From Eledone cirrhosa (Eukaryota), in assembly GCA_964016885.1 (NCBI GenBank), contig OZ024742.1:144460001-144524000 (forward strand): DNA of 64,000 nt, read 5' to 3'. Shown here one piece after another: positions 7,006 to 53,884 of this stretch. Positions within the stretch are counted from its first letter, which is position 1, and each line of letters begins with the position of its first letter. The translations under genes and the position numbers were made by a program. Below the pieces are notes generated by a model. It was not told the DNA's origin, did no database searches, and saw only the letters and a list, made by a program, of their open reading frames with translations.

Positions 7006-7189
7006 GCGAGGGAAAAGTGGTAAGGAACCAGGTGGACCATAACGCACCAAAGTACTCAATACTTAGGGTAGTAGAGTGGGTAATAGGAGTAAGTAAGACC
7101 CCGACGGCTGAGCTCAAGCCGTTTCGACGGCTAATTCTGTACTGAATGAAAAATCAGTTCTGGTATTTAAATAGCCGAACTTGTCAAGG

Positions 7190-7500
7190 GGCAATTCCTT
7201 CAAGACCCGGCTATACCAACACAGACATACCTTCCGAAACCCGGCCCGGCGTCACGCCACCACACTTTCGGGCCACATATGGGACCTCAAGGACAACAAC
7301 ATCAACTATGATCTCACTTGGAAATTACTGTCCAGAGCCAACTCCTACACGGGAGGACGCCGTCCGTGCAATTTATGCTCGGAGGAAACATTACAAATGC
7401 TGTTTTCGACGGACCAACTCCTTAACAAGAAAGATGAACTGGTTACTGCATGTAAACACCGATTACGTAGGACTTACCTCGCCCTCAAACCCCATAATGA
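7190..7500 (+). pseudogene. PLE GIY-YIG endonuclease C-terminal half
   Basis: GNSFKTRLYQHRHTFRN..TTLSGHIWDLKD...WKLL...CNLCSEE....LLNKKDELVTACKH is typical of PLE endonuclease ends. Confidence 0.8.
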
Positions 7501-8032
7501 CCCGGGGGGGGGGGTAGCCTATAACACCCCACTTGCCTATTTTGTAATGAGTAACCCCTGCTTGCCTATGGAGACGTAAGATCTTCCTTTACACTTTTTT
7601 TTATCGATCCAGTATCTCTTTCTTTTTCCCTTTTTCCCTTTTCTCCTTTTTTCCTGTATTAATTTTCCGTTCTTTATTTTTAATTCGTACGACTTTTCTT
7701 GTAGCCTGTATAAGACATTTTGTTTTGTTTCGTGGCGGTACCCTTAGAGTTAGTACCAGTACTTTTTTGCGGGACCCTGAATTACATTCTCATACTAGTC
7801 TACTTTCTTGCACTGGGTGGTTGCTGGCCCGGTGTTTGGAGTAGAAACCGTTATTTATTTTTTTTTTCGTGGTGGTCTCTGTAGTATTCCGACCCCCCCC
7901 CCCCCTCTGTTGACCCGTCACCGCACGATACACGCACTTATACCCCGCATAAGGGTCCCTTTATCTCCGTCACACCTAGGTTTTTATTTCTATCATTATC
8001 ATTTGTTTTCTTATTCTTTTTATTCTAAATTA

Positions 8033-8063
<31 letters not shown>

Positions 8064-8094
8064 ATCTATCTATCCATCCTTTTACTCACTTATT

Positions 8095-8437
8095 TGTTTA
8101 TTTACTCACTTATGTATTTCTTGTGGAATATTATTTACGTATTTCTTATTTACTTATGTAGAATATTACTTATGTATTTCTTATTTACTTATGTGGAATA
8201 TTTTCTTATTTACTTATGTGGAATATTATTTACGTATTTCTTATTTACTTATGTGGAATATTACTTATGTATTTCTTATTTACTTATGTGGAATATTATT
8301 CATGTATTTCTTATTTACTTATGTGGAATATTCTTTATGTATTTCTTATTTACTTATGTGGAATATTATTTTTGTATTTCTTATTTACTTATGTGGAATA
8401 TTATTTATGTATTTCTTATTTACTTATTTATGTATTT
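8095..8437. repeat. 35-bp minisatellite (about 9-10 units) inside the PLE 3' UTR
   Basis: Unit tttacttatgtggaatattatttatgtatttctta is repeated. Confidence 0.9.
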
Positions 8438-8752
8438 CTTCAGCCTATTTCCTAGTAACCAGATTCTGCTTATATTTCTTTTCTCTCTCAGTACTCTTTA
8501 CAGTTTTACATTTTCATCGTTCTACTTACCGTATTGACCTCATCCCCCTCCCCCTCCCCTGCCTCCTCTTTGACCTCACACCCAGCTGTAGCTGGCACCA
8601 CCAACGCATGAATGGGTCTACTCCTCCCCCTCTCCCCTTTTCTCCTACTGGCAGGTTTGGCTACCTCCCCCACCAACTTGCCATCGCTGAATTACTACTA
8701 CCTTGTGGGATGACCAATCCTGGTGATTATCTCTTTGACCATATATGGAATT

Positions 8753-8847
8753 GCCCCTTGACAAGTTCGGCTATTTAAATACCAGAACTGATTTTTCATT
8801 CAGTACAGAATTAGCTGTCGAAACGGCTTGAGCTCAGCCGTCGGGGT
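8753..8847 (+). ncRNA. Hammerhead ribozyme, U3-A8 core variant (mirror copy at 7098-7192 on -)
   Basis: Stem I gcccc/ggggt; core TTGACAA; stem II cggcta/tagc(c/t)g with a long insertion; GAAA; stem III cggct-tgagctc-agccg; GUC triplet. Confidence 0.65.
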
Positions 8848-8857
8848 CTTACTTACT

Positions 8858-8927
<70 letters not shown>

Positions 8928-23929: not shown

Positions 23930-25537
23930 GTTATTCCTTGAATCTCAGTCATTGATGTTGGTTAACTGGAAAGTCCGTTGGATTGAATATCAAGCCACTA
24001 CCTGCAGCCTCAGATATTCAGGACGTATCGGAGGGTTCTTGCTGTTCCAAGCAAGCATGCCTTTTGAAGCGTTCCAAAAAGCGTGAAGGGGCCGATTTTC
24101 TTTAACCATCCCTGGAAACTTTTGGAGATAGTCCCCAGTGCGCCTATGACAATCGGGATCACTTTGACTTCATGGCAGTTCCAAATCCTTTTCACCTCCC
24201 ACTTTAGGTCCTGGTATCGGTTAATTTTCTCCCTCTCCTTCTCTTGCACTCTCGTGTCGAACGGGCAGGCCACATCCACAATCAGACACGATCTTTTTTC
24301 TTTGTCCACAACCACCAGGTCAGGTCTATTGTGTTCCAGTTTTTTGTCCGTCTGTATCCTAAAATCCCACAGCACCTTCACCTGATTGTTCTCCATCACC
24401 GCCTCCGGCCTATGCTCATACCATTTCTCAGAATGTGGTAAATTGTTTACTTTGCACAGGTGCCAGTGGATCACCCTGCCCATCACATCGTGTCTCCAGC
24501 CCTTATAGTGGGTCTGGGCTAGGTGTTTACACTCGGACACAATGTGAGCCACAGTCTCCTCTCTCTCTCCACAGATCCTGCACAGTGGGCTAGCCTCCTC
24601 CTTGTAAATATGGTGCTTCAACCACTTCGTTTTGAGGGCCTGCTCCTGCGCAGCCATTATCATTCCTTCTGTAGCCTTTTTGAGGTCTCCTCTTCTCAAC
24701 CAGTTCCATGTCTGTGGATCTCTAAATTCAGTTTTCTCAAAGAAGGTACTATGAAGGGATTTTCCCTTAAGGCTGTTCTTCCTCCTTGATGTTATTTCCT
24801 CCTTGGACATCCCCTGGCCTACTGTCCCCTCCTTCAGTACAGCTTTGAGCATTGGCTCCTTACTATAGGTCACGTATTTGTATAGGTTGTTTTTCTCCAT
24901 CTGAACACAGTCCTCTATGCTGATAAGACCTCTTCCACCCTCAGATCTCCTTAGGTAGAGTCTATCGACATCACTCCTCTTGTGGAACATGTTGTAGATA
25001 GTCAATAGCTTCCTAGTCTTCCTATCCATTTCTTTTTGTTCAGCAACATTCCATCTCAGAATTCCCGCACTGTACCTAATAATAGACACAGCTCGGGAAT
25101 TTACTGCGCTTATGCCATTTCTGCTGTTCAGATGTGACTTCAATACGCTCCTTACTCTCCGAATGTATTCAGTTCTTAACAATTCCTTCATTTTTTTGTT
25201 CTTTATGCCATCAGCCTCCAGAACGCCCAAATACTTGTATCCTTCCTCAGAGTCAATTTCCTTTATCATCTCACCTGTTGGTATCTGGATCCCGCTACTT
25301 CTGCTCAACCTACCCCTCCTCATCACAATGACTCCACATTTACCAATACCAAACTGCATACATATATCACTGCTGAAAATACGGACAGTGTCAACAAGCA
25401 CATCCAACTCCTTCTCACTTTTCCCGAAGAGCTTAAGATCGTCCATGAAGAGGAGGTGATTGATGGTAAGCTCTCCCCTTCCCAACTTGTATCCTGCTCT
25501 CACTTTTCGCAGCATAATGGTCAAGGGCATTAGGGCA
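23930..25537 (-). mobile_element. 5'-truncated R4/Dong-type LINE in (TAA)n
   Basis: Pure (ATT)n on both flanks. Contains an uninterrupted ORF. Confidence 0.9.
24010..25530 (-). CDS. RT C-terminus + CCHC + restriction-like endonuclease of the Dong/R4 LINE (506 aa, 5'-truncated)
   Basis: HLLFMDDLK, YKYLG, CRICGEREETVAHIVSEC, RHD, NRPDLVV..DVACP..EK, IPIVIGALG. Confidence 0.88.
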   Translation of the reverse strand: MPLTIMLRKVRAGYKLGRGELTINHLLFMDDLKLFGKSEKELDVLVDTVRIFSSDICMQFGIGKCGVIVMRRGRLSRSSGIQIPTGEMIKEIDSEEGYKYLGVLEADGIKNKKMKELLRTEYIRRVRSVLKSHLNSRNGISAVNSRAVSIIRYSAGILRWNVAEQKEMDRKTRKLLTIYNMFHKRSDVDRLYLRRSEGGRGLISIEDCVQMEKNNLYKYVTYSKEPMLKAVLKEGTVGQGMSKEEITSRRKNSLKGKSLHSTFFEKTEFRDPQTWNWLRRGDLKKATEGMIMAAQEQALKTKWLKHHIYKEEASPLCRICGEREETVAHIVSECKHLAQTHYKGWRHDVMGRVIHWHLCKVNNLPHSEKWYEHRPEAVMENNQVKVLWDFRIQTDKKLEHNRPDLVVVDKEKRSCLIVDVACPFDTRVQEKEREKINRYQDLKWEVKRIWNCHEVKVIPIVIGALGTISKSFQGWLKKIGPFTLFGTLQKACLLGTARTLRYVLNI

Positions 25538-25667
<130 letters not shown>

Positions 25668-28007
25668 TACAGTATTCATTTTCTCATTGTCAAATGTGTG
25701 ATGTTAGCAAATGACAAGTGTTGAATTGATGCCATTGGCAGAATGAAAGTTTCAAGCAACAGATAAGTGGTTGTTAATTGACATTTAAATAAATAGGCCA
25801 TAAATTGGTTTCGAACACTTAATGAAGACGAAACTGAACAATGGAAAAATCTTAAGTAATTTTATATTCAAAATAGCTGCGATTTTCAATTTCCGTTTGT
25901 ATATTTTTAATGTTTTCCTTTTTTCTCCAACGTATATTGCAAAATCCTTCTCATACATTCAGATTTGTAGTATTTTCACGTAATTTGATACATGTAGGGA
26001 ATGTGTAGATGAAAGCTAAACCTTCATTCCTAAAAGTAGTTTTGAAACACTTAATTTCCTCTCCCAACGTTTATATATAATAGAGAAAACCACATGATAG
26101 GGATTATAAAATACCCGATAACAATTCCATTTTACAGAATGACGCTGGGAAATATCTACAAAAAATGTTTTACTTAGAAGTATCAAGCGTATTTCGAAAT
26201 ACTTCATTTCCTTTCACCATCTTGAATTATGATACGGAACCTTACTTGGCAGGGATTACAAAACACTTGATAACAATTCCATTTTACTGCAAACAAAATG
26301 AGGACCAGAAATAATCTCTAATCGAAACACCTTTTGCTAGAAATAGCAAACAAAGAAACACCAGTCGGTGGAACGATGATACAAAGAAGGGATTTGACTT
26401 ATATCCGAATCAACATGTGACTGCAAAAGTTTGAAATCACACCGGCCAAAGAGGAAGCTTCTTATCTGGTGGCGGAATTGCTAGAAATATAAGTTAAATG
26501 CTCTCCAATCCACTGTCTTAAAAGAAACTAAAGGTATAACCCGAATGTATTAAATTTGGTAACAGATGAGAATGTCACAGCCTCAACATTTTTGCCCATA
26601 GGTCTGCTTAATCCGTGCTGACATGAGGCTAATCAATAACACTAAAATTGAACCAGCGCTTAGAAGATTATTGAGCACGTGTACATATTTCAGATTGCAA
26701 TTACTCTTGGCAGTTTGTAATTTGTACTGCAAGATCAAGAAATATTTTCAAACATTACATAATCCTCCAACTGAAAGTTCACCAGTAAAGTTTATTAAAT
26801 TCTCTCTTGTCAGTATTAATAGAATAAGCAATGCGTGTTGGAAAGAACGCAAAAAAAAAAAAAATGGTTTCCAGCGACTACGAGCTAATCTGGTTTAAAA
26901 TACGACTTTGTGGTTCAGAAATTCGCTTAGCAATCAGAACAACATAATATACTATTGACAAAAACATTTTGAGAGAAATTTTGGAGAGAGCAACTGTACG
27001 GAAGATCATCGTATTTGTACATATAAATATATCAGTCTTGGCTGGAAGAAACGGTGCGTCGAACAAAAGTAGTTATGTTATTTTATATCACGCTAATTAT
27101 ATATCTTTATACCCAGATTGATTTTACTTTTCTGTCTAGGATATTGAAGAGATAAAGACAACAGAAAGTGCTAGGAGTCTATACAATAGACAAAAGCCTT
27201 TAAAGAATGTATACCAGTATGGTCATGATATGATGACTGAAACCAGTTAAAGAATCAATTTTCTTATAGAGTCCATAAAGTAGGGATGGTGAAACAATTA
27301 TTATATCTACAACATGTACACACCATTCTTAGCCTCTTTACGTAGCCAATTCTGTGACAGAGGAAGAATCGACACCAATACTCGACATATGTGCGTCTGA
27401 GTGTTTGTATGCGCAATCATCTTTTTTTCTCCTTTTTGTCTTGACTAAACCAACAATGGATTTATGCTGTTTTTTCGTAATCTTTTTGGGGGAAACTTTG
27501 TTCTTCATCTTCTTGTACACCATACTCTCTCAGATGATTAAAATATATTTTGAGATCACAAAACTATTGTGATATATTTTTTTTTATAAAATCACTCTAT
27601 TTAGTCAATGGTATAATGTCAGTGATGATCTGTAAAGTGATGATAGAATTGATCATATTGTTTTTCACCAACATGCCAAATAGTAGGCGAATTAATTTCA
27701 AAGTTTTCCTTTTCAGTTTCTAGTATTTGATTGATTTACATAATCAATCAGCTTACTTAAATGACTTTAATAAAGGGATGGCACACGAAACGATATAAAT
27801 ATAGACACCGATTCTTTCATCACATTTAAAAACGAAAGATTTCTTAACACAAATAAGGTAATGAGTATTAAAATACGTTAATGCAAGTAAGCCGAATAAA
27901 TTAACTAATAAAGCCTACTATTGAATTTAGGAACACAAATATTAGTTTAATATTTAAATTTGAAAGGGTTTTGAATTTCATTTCTCTATTAAACTGCAGA
28001 GTAATCT

Positions 28008-31792: not shown

Positions 31793-31990
31793 CGAAAACA
31801 AAGAAAATGTGGTAAGAATCCAGGTGGACCATAACGCACCACAGTACTCGATACTTAGGATAGTAGAGTGGGTAATAGGAAAAGAGTCAGTACCCCGACG
31901 GCTGAGCTCCGGCCGTTTCGACAGCTAGAGTTCGGATCTAGCTGTCGAAACGGCCGGAGCTCAGCCGTCGGGGTCATGACTTTTTTCTTA
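31790..31990. mobile_element. PLE family A mini fold-back in (TA)n
   Basis: Same tail as 7006-7085, plus a palindrome centred at about 31932 that contains GAAA-stem III-GUC-gggg. Confidence 0.8.
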
Positions 31991-32733: not shown

Positions 32734-35700
32734 CTATAGTCTGATGTAGAGTGAAGGCCCATTCACACGGGCCATTCTCGCCACTTTCACCCATCTTTCA
32801 TAGAAACGGCTGGGGTGCAGCACCTCTCTCTCCATCCTGATCCTTCTTCCGAAATGATATCGGAAGAAACGGACCAGTTGTTGGCCAGAGAGAAAGGTGC
32901 CCGACCTCAGTCCTTTCAGACGCGTCCACCATACAACCTCTTTCGCCATGGCTATTACGCACAGAAACACCGCCTCTGCTTCATCTTTGAAGGGGGGAGG
33001 CGGCTTGATCATTACAATAGACTCGGTGGTCAACCGGATCGGTCCCACCCTTGACAGCAGTTGTTCGACATAGCCCCACAGATCGGCTACGCCCGAGCAG
33101 TGTACTAATGCGTGTGCAACGGTTTCCTCGTCGCACACGCATCTGGGACAGATCTTTTTGGCGGGGTCCCTACCCGGGCGCCCGTGTCTGTAGAGCCTTT
33201 CTCGAACGGGTAAAGCCCCTCGGTAGCACTGCCAGGCCAGGGACTTCTGGAAGTTGTCCATAGGTCCCGGGCTGAATGTCCTACCGAACAGGCTGGCCAG
33301 TTCGTCCTCCTCCATGTCTAGGGCTTCTCCGAGGGCGTCGTCGCACCTGCTGCGTACCAGCCCTCTATAGAATGTTGCGGTGGAGTCTCCACTGACAACC
33401 GGATCCGCCTGCCAGAGGGCGGTGAGCGCCTGGGCACACTCAGTGTGCCAGGCGCCCAGTTTTCTCGGTCTTTGCTTGACCCAAGATTGCAGCTCGGTGA
33501 GTGAGACGAGTCTGGGAAAGGTTCGTCTCACAAACGAGGCCCACACCGGTTGTCCGGTGAGGAATACGTAGAGGTGCCGTAGCCTTAATGCGTGTTTACG
33601 CATCATTAGCCACGGCATCCCCAGCCCTCCTTTCGAAGGGTGTTGACAGCAGATGGATCTCCTCACCATAGGAGCCCGCCTCTTCCAAAGGAATTGGAAG
33701 AGCGCGCGCTCCATCTTGGTGAGGGTTTCCCTTGGGCAGGGCACTACGGTCAGGCGGTAGTAGATGACGGACGCTATGTAGGTGTTCGCCACCTCCGCCC
33801 GACCTTTCAGGGATAGTTTGCAACTGGCCCACTTCTGGGTCAGTGCAAACACCCTGTTCGTAACCTCCGCCCAGTTTTTCTCCACCTGGAGGTCCGGTCC
33901 GAACCAGACCCCGAGCAACTTCACCGGGCCCTCCGTCCAGCGTCCGACGACGCTATCGGAGGGCATCGGTCTGCCCCTCCACGTGCCGAGTTGCAAACCG
34001 ATCGACTTGTCCCGGTTCAGCTTAGCCCCTGTGAACTTTTCGTACTCCTCCAGTAAGGTGCCGACCGCCTCGATTTCGGAGGCCGTCGACACCATTACTG
34101 TCACGTCATCGGCGTAGGCCGACACCGCTTTCCGCAATCCCGGTTCCAAAGGGATGCCCTGCAACAACTCCAACTTCCGCAGTAGTGGCTCGAGAGTCAA
34201 CACATACAGAAGGGAGGAGAGAGGGCACCCTTGTCGGATGGACCGCGCGATTTTGAACGGCTCCGAGAGGTAGCCGTTCACCTTGACCCTAGAGCAGATG
34301 CGGCTGCTGTGCATAGCAGTGATCCAGCCCCTGAAAACGGGTCCGAAGCCTGCCGCCGCTAGCACCGCATCCAGGTAACCATGGTCGACCCTATCGAACG
34401 CCTTAGATTGATCCAAGTTGATCAGAGCCCCACCAAAGCCGGGTTCGTTCCCAACCCTCTCTATGATGTATCGCATGAGGTGGAGGTTGTCATGGATGGA
34501 CCTGGACGGGATAGCGCATGTCTGCGCATCTTCCACCAGGTTGCCCACGACAAGCGCCAACCTCTTTGCTAGCACCTTGGCCAAAATCTGTAACTCTGTA
34601 TTTAGCAGTGTTATGGGCCTGAAGTTACTTATTTCGTCCCCCTTGTTCTCGTCCTTCCTCACTAGCGTGACTACGCCCTTGGTCACAGTACAGGGAATTC
34701 TCCCGTTCTGTTGCCAGTTGCAGTAGACCGCCTCGAGGAGATCGGGGAACAAGTCCGGCATAGCTAGATATAATTCGTAAGGAAGACCATCGAGACCCGG
34801 GGATTTGCGTTTGCCGCATTGGCTCAGCACGTCCTCTATCTCAGCGGCCGAAATCGGCTCCTCGCAGGACTTCGCCTCCCTGTCCGAGAGGCGCGGCAGG
34901 CCGTCGAGGTATGGACCGAAGTCCACGTTCCCAACCGGCTCCCCGCCCCTCCCGAACAGTCGGGCAAAGTGCCTTTGAAAGGCCTCACACATCTGCTTAG
35001 GCTCAAGAATCGCCCGTCCATCCAGGTCTCGCAAAGACCGGATGGTGGATTTAGTTCCACTGTTGGCCTCTGTCACGCGGGCCCAGCTAACAGCTTTGGT
35101 CCCCTCGTTCCCTAGAGCACGTATTTTACTTCGGACAACGCAGCCTTCGTGCTTCGCGTCGAAAAACTGGCTCAAAGCCGTTCTCGACGCTAGCACTCTG
35201 GCCACGTCGCCGCTTCTAATTGCCTCTTCTACTCTATCTATTAGCTCCCTTTCCTTCCTATTCCTATCCGCAGCTAGAACCTTACTAAATTCTATCGAGA
35301 CTACTCTAATCTCTCTCTTTAGAGATACCCACCACCTGCTGTTGACGATCGCTCCAGTCAACCGTTCCTTAACTAACGTACTAATCCGATTCCTGTAGGC
35401 TCTACTTGCCGGCAAGGACAAGTTGAGCTTCCAGTAACCGGGGCCCTGTCTATGAGTTCTGTCAAGGTTGACCATGCAGGTCACTAATTTGTGGTCTGAA
35501 TAGCCAACCATGCGCATTTTTGGACAACTTAAAAAGTCCTTATCCTTAATTCTAACTAAGAACCTATCTAGGTACGACCTAGATGATCCGCTACGATTTG
35601 CCCAAGTCCAGGTTGGCGCAGTCGGAAAATCTAGTCGATATCTATCGGCCAGGTCAAATCGACCGATTAACCCTTTGAGGCTATTACACCCCTCTCTATC

Positions 35701-36171
35701 GGGGCAGGCCCCTACGTAGTCCCAGCGTGCATCTAGGATACCATTCCAGTCCCCCACTAATAGCAAGGAGCGGGACGTCCCTAGAAAAGTCTCCAGACGA
35801 TGGAAGAAGTCCGGCCGCATTGACCCGAAAGGGCCGTAGGCGGCTACCAACCTAAACGCTCCGCCTTTACCACTGCCAAGGTCCAGAACCACTAGTCGAC
35901 CCTCCGGGTCCAAATGTACCATCTGTGTTGCGAGACCCAGATGTTTTTGCAGCAGAACGACAACTCCACTCCCACCTCCGGGCTGACAGAGAGATGCGTG
36001 CATCTCAAAGTCATCAAAGGTGGGGGACAGCTGTCGCACGTTGCTGATCCGGGCCTCGCAAATAACCATCACATCTATACGTTGTGACCTGAGGTCATTT
36101 AGAAGCATTGCTTGCTTCCAAGTTGAGCCCAGGCCACGCGCATTTAAACAGCCTACTCTTAGCATAGCCAT
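32734..36171 (-). CDS. LINE ORF2: APE endonuclease, reverse transcriptase, C-terminal zinc finger (uninterrupted)
   Basis: LNARGL, GDWN, YLDRF, SDH, KSPGLDG, NFRPITLLN, LDQSKAFDRVDH, IRQGCPLS, AYADD, CPRC..ETVAHALVHC. Confidence 0.95.
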   Translation of the reverse strand: MAMLRVGCLNARGLGSTWKQAMLLNDLRSQRIDVMVICEARISNVRQLSPTFDDFEMHASLCQPGGGSGVVVLLQKHLGLATQMVHLDPEGRLVVLDLGSGKGGAFRLVAAYGPFGSMRPDFFHRLETFLGTSRSLLLVGDWNGILDARWDYVGACPDREGCNSLKGLIGRFDLADRYRLDFPTAPTWTWANRSGSSRSYLDRFLVRIKDKDFLSCPKMRMVGYSDHKLVTCMVNLDRTHRQGPGYWKLNLSLPASRAYRNRISTLVKERLTGAIVNSRWWVSLKREIRVVSIEFSKVLAADRNRKERELIDRVEEAIRSGDVARVLASRTALSQFFDAKHEGCVVRSKIRALGNEGTKAVSWARVTEANSGTKSTIRSLRDLDGRAILEPKQMCEAFQRHFARLFGRGGEPVGNVDFGPYLDGLPRLSDREAKSCEEPISAAEIEDVLSQCGKRKSPGLDGLPYELYLAMPDLFPDLLEAVYCNWQQNGRIPCTVTKGVVTLVRKDENKGDEISNFRPITLLNTELQILAKVLAKRLALVVGNLVEDAQTCAIPSRSIHDNLHLMRYIIERVGNEPGFGGALINLDQSKAFDRVDHGYLDAVLAAAGFGPVFRGWITAMHSSRICSRVKVNGYLSEPFKIARSIRQGCPLSSLLYVLTLEPLLRKLELLQGIPLEPGLRKAVSAYADDVTVMVSTASEIEAVGTLLEEYEKFTGAKLNRDKSIGLQLGTWRGRPMPSDSVVGRWTEGPVKLLGVWFGPDLQVEKNWAEVTNRVFALTQKWASCKLSLKGRAEVANTYIASVIYYRLTVVPCPRETLTKMERALFQFLWKRRAPMVRRSICCQHPSKGGLGMPWLMMRKHALRLRHLYVFLTGQPVWASFVRRTFPRLVSLTELQSWVKQRPRKLGAWHTECAQALTALWQADPVVSGDSTATFYRGLVRSRCDDALGEALDMEEDELASLFGRTFSPGPMDNFQKSLAWQCYRGALPVRERLYRHGRPGRDPAKKICPRCVCDEETVAHALVHCSGVADLWGYVEQLLSRVGPIRLTTESIVMIKPPPPFKDEAEAVFLCVIAMAKEVVWWTRLKGLRSGTFLSGQQLVRFFRYHFGRRIRMEREVLHPSRFYERWVKVARMARVNGPSLYIRL

Positions 36172-36195
36172 GTTGGTGGTGAAGAGAAAAGGCAC

Positions 36196-38357: not shown

Positions 38358-38390
<33 letters not shown>

Positions 38391-38393
<3 letters not shown>

Positions 38394-38528
38394 AAAAAGT
38401 ATGACCCCGACGGCAGAGCTCAAGCCGTCGGGGTCATACTTTTTCCTATTTCCCACTCTACTACCCTAAGTATTGAGTACTCTGGTGCGTTATGGTCCAT
38501 CTGGTTCTTTACCACAATTCCTTTGTTA
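38391..38528. mobile_element. PLE family A, smallest fold-back
   Basis: aggaaaaagtatgaccccgacggc / gccgtcggggtcatactttttcct plus the family tail. In (TA)n. Confidence 0.8.
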
Positions 38529-38716
38529 TATATATATATATAAGTAACAGCCGTACTAGGAGTGGGAAATGAAATTTCCTTTCATTTTTTCCGTTTATCG
38601 TTTTCGGTGCACCCGGCCGATTAACCCACTCGATATGCAAATTGGGCTACTCAGCCGTTAATATGCATAAGGAGAGTATATACTTTCAGACGTTCAACAC
38701 TCTGGCAGGAAGGTAT

Positions 38717-42068: not shown

Positions 42069-42084
42069 ATATATATATAAACAT

Positions 42085-43352
42085 ATGCCCAAGAGGAAGG
42101 AGCAGCCATTGGTGTTAGCATTGCAGGCGACATAGCTAACTTATTCATGGTATGGTGGGACAGTAGACTTAAACTTAAACTTAAAGAACAATTAGAAGAC
42201 CCCTTAACCCTGATAATGTACTCCCGCTACGTTGATGATATAAACATCGTAGTTAAAACACCGCCACTAGAGAACAGTCAGGAATTAGAGAAAAACACAA
42301 TGGAAAGCATCCAGCAAATAGCTAACTCCATCCACCAGAGTATTAGAGTTACTATAGACTACCCAAGTAAACACCCCAACCATCGATTACCTGTACTAGA
42401 CACAGAGCTCTGGTTAGATACCATTAATAACAAAAAACAAATCCTCCATTCCCATTATGCCAAACCCATGACTTCCAAATATCTGATCCACCGAAACTCA
42501 GCTGTTTCGGACCATACCAAAATCAACATACTGATTGCGGATTTGGTACGGGTGATGAGAAACGTGTCCCGCATGTGCAACCCCGAAGAACTAGAGAGAC
42601 ACATACAACACTTCATCCACCGTATGCAGTTCTCTGGTTACAATCAGAGAGATAAAATCAGAGTGTATAGAGGAGCCAGAACCAAATGGGAAAAAATGGT
42701 ACATAATGACACAAATGGGACCTGCCCCTTGTATAGGAGCACATTTTGGAATAGAATAGAAAGAACTAGGAATAAGGCTAATAGAATAAACTCATGGTAT
42801 GATAGCAATAAATATCAGAGTGTAATGTTCATCGATACAACCCCTAGCGGTGAATTAGCTTACAAATTTAGAAGGGCCATAGACAAACATAAACTCAATA
42901 TTAAGATAGTAGAAAGACCAGGTACCTCCGTAAAAACACTTATTAGCAAGACATACCCTTTTCAAAGACCCCCCTGTATAGATAAGAAATGTATAACCTG
43001 TAAATTAAGCCCACATATTAACTGTAAAACTAGAAATGTAGTATATAGCATAAGATGTACTGAAGGACAATGTAGAGACAAAAATATAGTGTACATAGGT
43101 GAGACAGCTCGTAGTGTAGGGGAACGGATAAATGAACACTGGCGAGACCTTCAAGATAGTAAAGAATCATCTGTACTCTACCAACATGCTAAAATAGAAC
43201 ATAAGGGTAAATTAGAGAACATAGAAATAAAAATAGAATCTACACACAGAAAAGACGCAATGTTTAGACAAATCAGAGGCAATAAACATAAATTACAACC
43301 AAAATTAAATAGAAAATATGAGTGGAACAGCAACATCACAACTTACAATTAA
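42085..43352 (+). CDS. Penelope-like RT (C-terminal part) + GIY-YIG endonuclease, 5'-truncated
   Basis: YAQEEGAAIG..ANLFM, YSRYVDD, LPVLD, C-x4-C-x2-C linker, NVVYSIRC...YIGETARSVGERINEH. Confidence 0.9.
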
Positions 43353-44756: not shown

Positions 44757-45112
<356 letters not shown>

Positions 45113-53625: not shown

Positions 53626-53689
<64 letters not shown>

Positions 53690-53691
<2 letters not shown>

Positions 53692-53884
53692 CGAAAGAAG
53701 TGTGGTAAGGAACCAGATGGACCATAACGCACCAGAGTACTCAATATTAAGGGTAGTAGAGTGGGTAATAGAAAAAGGTTTAACCCCGACGGCAGAGTTC
53801 AAGCCGTTTCGACGGCTATTTCTGGACCAGAAATAGCCGTTGAAACGGCTTGAGCTCTGCCGTCGGGGTTAAACATTTTCCTAT
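53690..53884. mobile_element. PLE family A mini fold-back
   Basis: Family tail plus a palindrome centred at about 53826. Confidence 0.82.

What the first reader, a model, noticed from the sequence alone, without database searches (positions are those of the whole stretch)
7098..8847. Second, unrelated U3-A8 hammerhead (UUGACAA) with a long stem III in PLE family A
Seen in sequence: gcccc-TTGACAA-gttcggcta...tagc(c/t)gtc-GAAA-cggct-tgagctc-agccg-TC-ggggt is present in both pLTR copies. The GAAA-cggc..gccg-TC-gggg half and the palindromic GAGCTC loop are largely conserved across five diverged insertions. Unlike typical PLE minimal hammerheads, stem III is stable and stem II has an insertion of about 40 nt. 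Inference: an independent family with the same rare core swap that might cleave as a monomer.
Basis: partly seen in the sequence, partly recalled or inferred. Interest (0 to 1): 0.72.

Follow-up and report, generated by a model that had tools for sequence, protein, structure and literature searches.

The report
Retrotransposon hammerhead with promoter inside
This is a hammerhead-ribozyme motif with an already published U-A core swap at the end of a very abundant Penelope-type jumping gene, and the ends of its genomic copies pile up at two exact spots, one inside the motif's big loop (likely where the element's RNA starts) and one at the predicted cut site (likely a record of real cutting), which would make the role of these ribozymes testable.

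Summary
Observation confirmed: a type I hammerhead with a U3-A8 core (8753-8847; inverted copy 7098-7192) in the pLTR of a Hydra-clade Penelope-like element with over 30,000 copy ends genome-wide. Only N7 varies freely in the core, and stem II covaries. U3-A8 is already published for PLE hammerheads.

The 40-nt "insertion" likely holds the transcription start. Of the first 100 copy arms that reach the A of TCAGT (8802), 52 stop within 6 nt of it, and an untemplated G precedes it in 35 of 100 junctions to TA repeats (background 6%). A second, single-base peak of copy ends lies at the predicted cut (336 hits versus 59, 72 and 38 at neighbouring positions), without extra G.

Efficient monomer cleavage is not supported: most complete-ribozyme copies came from uncut RNA, and the GAGCUC palindrome favours a dimer. 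One subfamily is 75% C3·A8-mismatched yet shows cut-site ends at the normal rate, which suggests cleavage in trans. No RNA data or assay was available. The scan reported these features earlier on other DNA of this genome.

The parts
7006..8862 (.). One two-armed insertion of a Hydra-clade Penelope-like element in a (TA)n repeat
7006..7198 (-). Short inverted arm: full hammerhead plus 77-nt tail; 3' end at 7006 is the inferred second RT start point (+138)
   Evidence: inference from PMC11167929
7098..7192 (-). Hammerhead copy 1 (core 7187-7181, predicted cut between 7103 and 7102, initiator A at 7143)
7199..7504 (+). 3' remnant of the RT-EN ORF: 102 codons of the GIY-YIG C-terminus with CxxC and CxH motifs
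   Evidence: longer frames in L031 and L228
7505..8752 (+). 3' UTR / pLTR, with a 35-bp tandem repeat at about 8098-8430
8753..8757 (+). Stem I 5' arm (pairs with 8843-8847)
   Evidence: 94.6% of cells paired, no double change
8758..8764 (+). Core U3-U4-G5-A6-N7-A8-A9
8765..8819 (+). Stem II: G10.1-C11.1, 2x1 internal loop, 6-9 bp helix, 38-nt loop region
   Evidence: 4 pairs with changes on both sides
8800..8804 (+). TCAGT/TTAGT initiator-like motif; A8802 is the inferred capped transcription start (+1)
8820..8842 (+). GAAA, stem III (5-6 bp) with palindrome GAGCTC at 8830-8835, and GUC triplet
8842..8843 (+). Predicted scissile bond (+41/+42); single-base peak of copy ends genome-wide
8843..8862 (+). 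Stem I 3' arm and spacer to the first inferred RT start point (+61), then TA repeat
31797..31989 (.). Back-to-back stub, subfamily B; one arm starts at the initiator with an extra G, the other a few bases downstream
38389..38532 (.). Back-to-back stub joined at the GAGCTC palindrome
44866..45076 (.). Back-to-back stub; both arms start at about -4
53685..53884 (.). Back-to-back stub, subfamily E; arms start at about +2 and +4

Best explanation
The motif is a type I U3-A8 hammerhead in the pLTR of a Hydra-clade Penelope-like retrotransposon; its loop II likely contains the element's transcription start, and it likely cuts only part of the RNA, probably as a palindrome-joined dimer that can also act in trans. 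SHOWN: the motif, the 784-aa RT-EN frame in a 3.53-kb tandem unit, stem II covariation, two fixed copy 3' ends (+61, +138), and two peaks of copy 5' ends (about +1 with extra G; +42 without). INFERRED steps: (1) Pol II starts at the A of YYAGT, so the capped mRNA begins with only the 3' half of the ribozyme and cannot cut itself there in cis. (2) RT starts at +61 and +138; on this 5' copy it runs off the cap and leaves the common ~200-bp back-to-back stubs. (3) Read-through into the next pLTR gives a complete ribozyme; RT on uncut RNA gives long copies such as this one. (4) Cleavage at GUC leaves uncapped RNAs starting at +42, recorded in roughly 3% of tail arms. PREDICTED only: a complete ribozyme pairs through GAGCUC with a promoter-born half and cuts it. 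Cleavage is likely not required for copying.
For: Core. Stem II: 4 pairs with double changes, 24 cells, 0/500 shuffles (related sequences, so not a probability). Start site: 52 of the first 100 of 16,694 arms reaching +1 stop at -5..+1, 46 run on 24 nt or more, 2 stop between (counted by eye). 112 of 150 coreless arms end at -5..+7. Extra base at -1 beside TA repeats is G 35, A 7, C 58 of 100 listed of 105 versus background G 73, A 340, C 872; G:A odds ratio 23. Spacing from initiator A to G12 is 18 nt in 80 of 81 copies, while the upstream loop varies 33-41 nt. Cut site: 336 hits (86 of the first 100 real junctions) versus 59 one base 3', 72 one base 5' and 38 three bases 5', among 30,132 tail arms. 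In 36 of the first 100 of 263 symmetric insertions both arms start at G1.1, joined only by 1-3 A/T. An extra G at the cut end is rare (80 hits, about 34 real). Trans dimer is 7.4-11.7 kcal/mol below the separate folds in 12 of 12 pairings (hand-built structure). Subfamily F is C3.A8 in 75 of the first 100 of 613 full copies yet gives 18 of 86 cut junctions versus 17 of 100 arms.
Against: No RNA or biochemical data. The subfamily F result also fits cut-site ends that have nothing to do with the ribozyme, residual C3.A8 activity, or over-production of stubs by F's U3 quarter; the 3' half cannot tell the branches apart. 37 of 100 symmetric junctions have no spacer and can arise by CG microhomology, so I did not count them. 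C is the commonest extra base at -1 (58), explained only by background. The start peak is broad (-5..+7). RNAalifold prefers a competing hairpin that hides GAAA, and it is the MFE for this window's inverted copy and for L004. Stems I and III show no double changes. The four position patterns pass different fractions of junctions (roughly 0.3-0.43 by my estimate), so raw counts are not exactly comparable. No DPE match to the D. virilis consensus was seen.
Confidence: 0.68

Rival explanations
1. Efficient monomeric cis ribozyme: the long stem III lets each complete copy cut itself at GUC, as in fungal PLE hammerheads.
For: Active fold equals the MFE in subfamily D and is within 0.8-2.6 kcal/mol in A, E and B. 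Stem III has 5 pairs, 96% of cells paired. A Serpula PLE hammerhead with a large helix III cleaves as a monomer (PMC4209133).
Against: 4 of 20 tail arms in L231-L260 run through the whole uncut ribozyme versus about 3 of 100 ending at the cut. The C3.A8 subfamily shows cut ends at par. The palindrome is kept in all subfamilies.
Confidence: 0.15
2. The ribozyme is a near-inactive relic whose sequence is kept as promoter DNA and RT signal; the +42 peak comes from an RT stop at the end of the G4 run or a host nuclease.
For: Subfamily F multiplied with a broken 3-8 pair (about 460 full copies extrapolated) and still shows the peak. PAc ribozyme mutants insert normally in vitro (PMC11167929). A competing hairpin exists.
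Against: The peak is one base wide at exactly the hammerhead bond; a stall at stem III would be expected one base further 5' (inference), where counts are low. The upstream core and stem II 5' arm are conserved and covary although absent from the promoter-born RNA.
Confidence: 0.11
3. The pile-up near 8802 is an RT stall at a loop II hairpin, not a transcription start.
For: A 4-5 bp hairpin ends at TCAGT/TTAGT in several subfamilies; the peak is broad.
Against: Extra-G excess. The hairpin is weak and variable, while RT passes the stronger stem III. The motif and its spacing are fixed.
Confidence: 0.06

Closest known systems
Hydra clade of C-terminal EN+ PLEs (Craig et al. 2021, PMC8557442; section 11, passages and supplement parts 1-2 of 59 read)
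   Same: RW(K/R), DKT, CxCX5C linker, CxxC and CxH around E and N, (TA)n targets, inverted truncated arm, tail, hammerhead in the pLTR.
   Different: All 26 Hydra rows of File S2 have C3-G8 cores, loop II of 10 nt or less and loop III of 1-3 nt. Here: U3-A8, 55 nt between A9 and G12, 7-9 nt loop III, a 3.5-kb unit and a 77-nt tail.
U3-A8 minimal hammerheads of Schistosoma Cercyon PLEs (Cervera and De la Pena 2014, PMC4209133, parts 1-2 of 4 read); natural U3-A8 cores (Perreault 2011, PMC3088659, section 8 read)
   Same: Same core swap, type I topology, pLTR location, palindromic loop III.
   Different: Not minimal: a real stem III and a long loop II; no extra base between A9 and G10.1.
PAc (Anolis Poseidon PLE; Frangieh 2024, PMC11167929, parts 1-2 of 4 read)
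   Same: Two RT start points bounding the tail; uncut RNA is the main template; cleavage not needed for insertion in vitro.
   Different: No reads began or ended at the PAc cut site; here copy ends peak at the cut.
Drosophila virilis Penelope internal promoter (Schostak 2008, PMC2377424, passages read)
   Same: Internal promoter with an initiator in the pLTR drives the downstream copy.
   Different: Its start lies 46 bp upstream of an intron whose end abuts helix I (PMC4209133), so the RNA holds the whole ribozyme; here the inferred start splits it. No intron was looked for here.

Membership tests
Type I hammerhead | Core N3UGAN7N8A / GAAA / NUH with a 3-8 Watson-Crick pair | tested here: met
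   U3-A8, with one subfamily mostly C3.A8
Type I hammerhead | Three helices, stem I open, G10.1-C11.1 and A15.1-U16.1 | tested here: met
   90.8% of cells paired; double changes only in stem II
Type I hammerhead | Match to a curated Rfam model | tested here: not met
   no hit at gathering score; E-value mode not run; the long loop is a likely cause (inference)
Type I hammerhead | Self-cleavage 3' of C17 | not testable with these tools
   indirect: single-base peak of copy ends
Type I hammerhead | Loop I - loop II tertiary contact | not tested
   an extended stem I with an internal loop is predicted in D, E and B; no contact identified
PLE minimal (dimer-type) hammerhead | Stem III absent or 1-2 bp | tested here: not met
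   5-6 bp
PLE minimal (dimer-type) hammerhead | Palindromic loop III | tested here: met
   GAGCTC in all subfamily majorities
Hydra-clade PLE | RWK-like motif, DKT, C-terminal GIY-YIG | tested here: met
   RWR and DKT in L228; VIY..YIG in L031
Hydra-clade PLE | CxCX5C linker; CxxC and CxH beside E and N | tested here: met
   CNCPDRSSC, CNLC, CKH
Hydra-clade PLE | (TA)n target, inverted/tandem copies, tail | tested here: met
Hydra-clade PLE | RT phylogeny groups with Hydra references | not tested
   no tree built; Pfam gave no hit for 2 of 2 proteins
Non-LTR retrozyme | Short non-coding tandem unit | tested here: not met
   unit is 3.53 kb with a 784-aa frame

The most novel reading that the evidence does not exclude
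A promoter-split hammerhead: transcription starts inside loop II, so every mRNA begins with a substrate-only half ribozyme that a complete ribozyme, at its own 3' end or on another family member's RNA, cuts in trans through the GAGCUC palindrome. This would decap the mRNA and leave ends that could close a circle. A catalytically broken subfamily would then be processed by its relatives, and roughly a thousand genomic junctions record the cut in vivo.
Probability: 0.3. Interest if true: 0.8.

Novelty: new variant of a known kind. Interest (0 to 1): 0.52.

Why it matters
[quoted passage not shown] Here the genome itself holds base-exact marks at the predicted cut and at a likely capped start inside the ribozyme, plus a natural C3.A8 subfamily as a control. 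That yields a small set of constructs to test monomer versus dimer versus trans cleavage and whether cleavage helps or limits copying. The U3-A8 swap itself is not new.

Tried and rejected
Rfam at gathering score: no hit. Pfam: no hit for two ORFs. Unconstrained folding of the window copies gave unremarkable z-scores (-0.71 and -1.42). Sequencing runs: no RNA holder listed. Contigs of X1 and X3 show far higher depth over the 3' half and tail than over the ORF but cannot show RNA ends; not used as evidence on expression. A metagenome scan gave 8 loci; relatives of about 37-44% identity carried short C3-G8 hammerheads in 5 of the 6 scanned (L261-L266), so no outside U3-A8 homologue was found. 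Naiad membership was rejected because the endonuclease is C-terminal. G at -1 in back-to-back stubs (14 G versus 1 A) was set aside because the partner arm can supply the G; only TA-flanked junctions were used. Zero-spacer symmetric junctions were set aside (CG microhomology). The 595-bp retrozyme shows no significant DNA similarity to this element (best E 0.05). Lunse et al. 2017 and Martick and Scott 2006 were not held; the former may already list similar PLE hammerhead variants. Literature searches listed no paper reporting a transcription start inside a PLE hammerhead or copy ends at the cut; one search returned nothing, so I have no measured rate for a C3.A8 mismatch. Subscription journals and bioRxiv supplements are not covered.

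Full report
OBSERVATION. The quoted sequence is present at 8753-8847 (+) and 7098-7192 (-). The heptamer alone is not enriched, but these two copies are the only hits with a non-C3-G8 core and full hammerhead topology in the strict window scan. The copies are the two inverted arms of one insertion, 7006-8862, in a TA repeat. The long arm carries 102 codons of a GIY-YIG C-terminus, about 1.25 kb of 3' UTR and the ribozyme. Four more window insertions are short back-to-back stubs holding only the right half.

THE ELEMENT. Genome searches gave full-length copies with a 784-aa frame, some in tandem arrays of 3,531 bp. The protein has RWR, DKT, a CxCX5C linker, a C-terminal GIY-YIG, and CxxC and CxH motifs, the diagnostic set of the Hydra clade (PMC8557442 section 11). 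I built no tree. The family is abundant: 30,132 exact matches to a tail pattern, and about 8 insertions in 400 kb of evenly spaced stretches, none reaching the core.

IS IT A HAMMERHEAD? In 87 distinct full copies the core is conserved except N7, which takes all four bases (the set is enriched by core-containing queries). On 26 chosen copies, 90.8% of cells pair and four stem II pairs change on both sides; stems I and III show no double change. The active fold is the MFE in subfamily D and within 0.8-2.6 kcal/mol in A, E and B, but 9.7 above it in one B2 copy. A competing hairpin that hides GAAA is the MFE for L004 and the RNAalifold consensus. U3-A8 is a known, active covariation (PMC3088659 section 8) and was reported in Schistosoma PLEs (PMC4209133). 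The 26 Hydra hammerhead rows in File S2 are all C3-G8 with short loops, so this architecture is unusual for the clade.

THE INSERTION LIKELY HOLDS THE RNA START. Of the first 100 of 16,694 arms that reach the A of TCAGT/TTAGT (8802, +1), 52 stop between -5 and +1, 2 stop between -6 and -23, and 46 run on (counted by eye). Scripted mapping put 112 of 150 coreless arms at -5..+7 (pooled loci, partly selected by query). Where such an arm abuts host TA repeat with one extra base, that base is G in 35, A in 7 and C in 58 of 100 listed, against a background of 73, 340 and 872; the G:A odds ratio is 23. Untemplated 5' G is the accepted sign of a reverse-transcribed cap in L1 and SVA (PMC4859970). The motif sits 18 nt before G12 in 80 of 81 copies, while the loop upstream varies from 33 to 41 nt. 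That YYAGT resembles an initiator is my recollection; D. virilis Penelope has an internal promoter with an initiator (PMC2377424). Copies end 3' at two fixed points, +61 and +138, as expected from two internal RT starts (PMC11167929).

COPY ENDS AT THE CUT. Tail arms that end exactly at G1.1 (+42) number 336 hits, 86 of the first 100 being true junctions. Comparable patterns give 59 one base 3', 72 one base 5' and 38 three bases 5'; some of these are also indels or microhomology joins, and the patterns pass somewhat different fractions. In 263 insertions both arms start at or near the cut. Of the first 100, 36 have both arms at G1.1 joined by 1-3 A/T only, 37 have no spacer (ambiguous), and 15 have one arm a few bases longer. 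An extra G at this end is not enriched (80 hits, about 34 real; my rough expectation without a cap was about 75). So two kinds of RNA 5' end are recorded, one cap-like at +1 and one uncapped at the hammerhead bond, the latter in roughly 3% of tail arms.

MONOMER, DIMER OR TRANS? Four of 20 tail arms in L231-L260 run through an intact ribozyme, as do both arms here, so uncut RNA was the commoner template. Stem III can fold alone (-7.1 kcal/mol), but two copies form a duplex of -30.7 through GAGCUC. Following a lead from note e1-9570153, I found that subfamily F has C3.A8 in 75, U3-A8 in 24 and A3 in 1 of the first 100 of 613 full copies. F supplies 18 of 86 cut junctions and 17 of 100 arms; about 4 would be expected if only its U3 copies cut in cis. 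This counts against simple cis cleavage. It fits trans cleavage: a hand-built complex of a complete ribozyme with a promoter-born half scores 7.4-11.7 kcal/mol below the separate folds in 12 of 12 pairings. It also fits residual C3.A8 activity or a non-ribozyme cause, which I cannot exclude. The palindrome at +29..+34 could also be kept as promoter DNA.

INDEPENDENCE. The window's other U3-A8 motif (31564, 31639, 39404, 39469) is a minimal hammerhead of unrelated sequence. A 595-bp tandem repeat in L116 and L068 has a third one, with a similarly bulged stem II and long loop II but no significant DNA similarity to this element. A single or repeated origin of the swap is untested.

PRIOR WORK AND VERDICT. 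I reached the start-site and cut-site results before the first look-up of earlier notes. The scan had reported both, and the mismatch subfamily, on other DNA of this genome; those notes are not independent support. My literature searches listed no paper with these features, but Lunse et al. 2017 could not be read. Verdict: a real hammerhead, a new variant of a known kind. The core swap is ordinary; the promoter inside loop II and the cut-site footprints are the valuable part. Interest 0.52.

Noticed in passing
   Followed up: partly
window 6165/6270, 38723/39946, 43558, 51328/51473, 56194/56584, 59275: Several C3-G8 hammerhead motifs in other repeat families, most in palindromic insertions.
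   Followed up: no
L116:2300-3100 and L068: 595-bp tandem retrozyme-like unit with a U3-A8 core, bulged stem II, long loop II and a perfectly palindromic stem III.
   Followed up: partly
L037:702-3059: A second Hydra-type PLE with an open 785-aa frame, 37% identical to this family, in partial tandem; a C3-G8-like motif lies upstream, with poor stem I.
   Followed up: partly
L041, L044, L045, L051, L052, L055, L057, L060, L067: In these stubs the tail arm reads GAACTC and the short arm GAGCTC in loop III. The query carried GAACTC, so selection may explain it; otherwise two templates or a mutation hotspot.
   Followed up: no
versus one search lists: Subfamily E types give 4 of 36 clean both-arm cut junctions but 37 of 100 tail arms; E has a U-U mismatch beside the palindrome. 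The gap is small (26 of 86).
   Followed up: no
window 8815-8827: Stem II 3' arm and stem III 5' arm can pair into a CGAA-capped hairpin that hides the catalytic GAAA; a possible off state.
   Followed up: partly
window 32734-36195 (-), 24010-25683 (-), 42081-43352 (+): Long stop-free frames of 1153, 557 and 423 aa; not identified.
   Followed up: no
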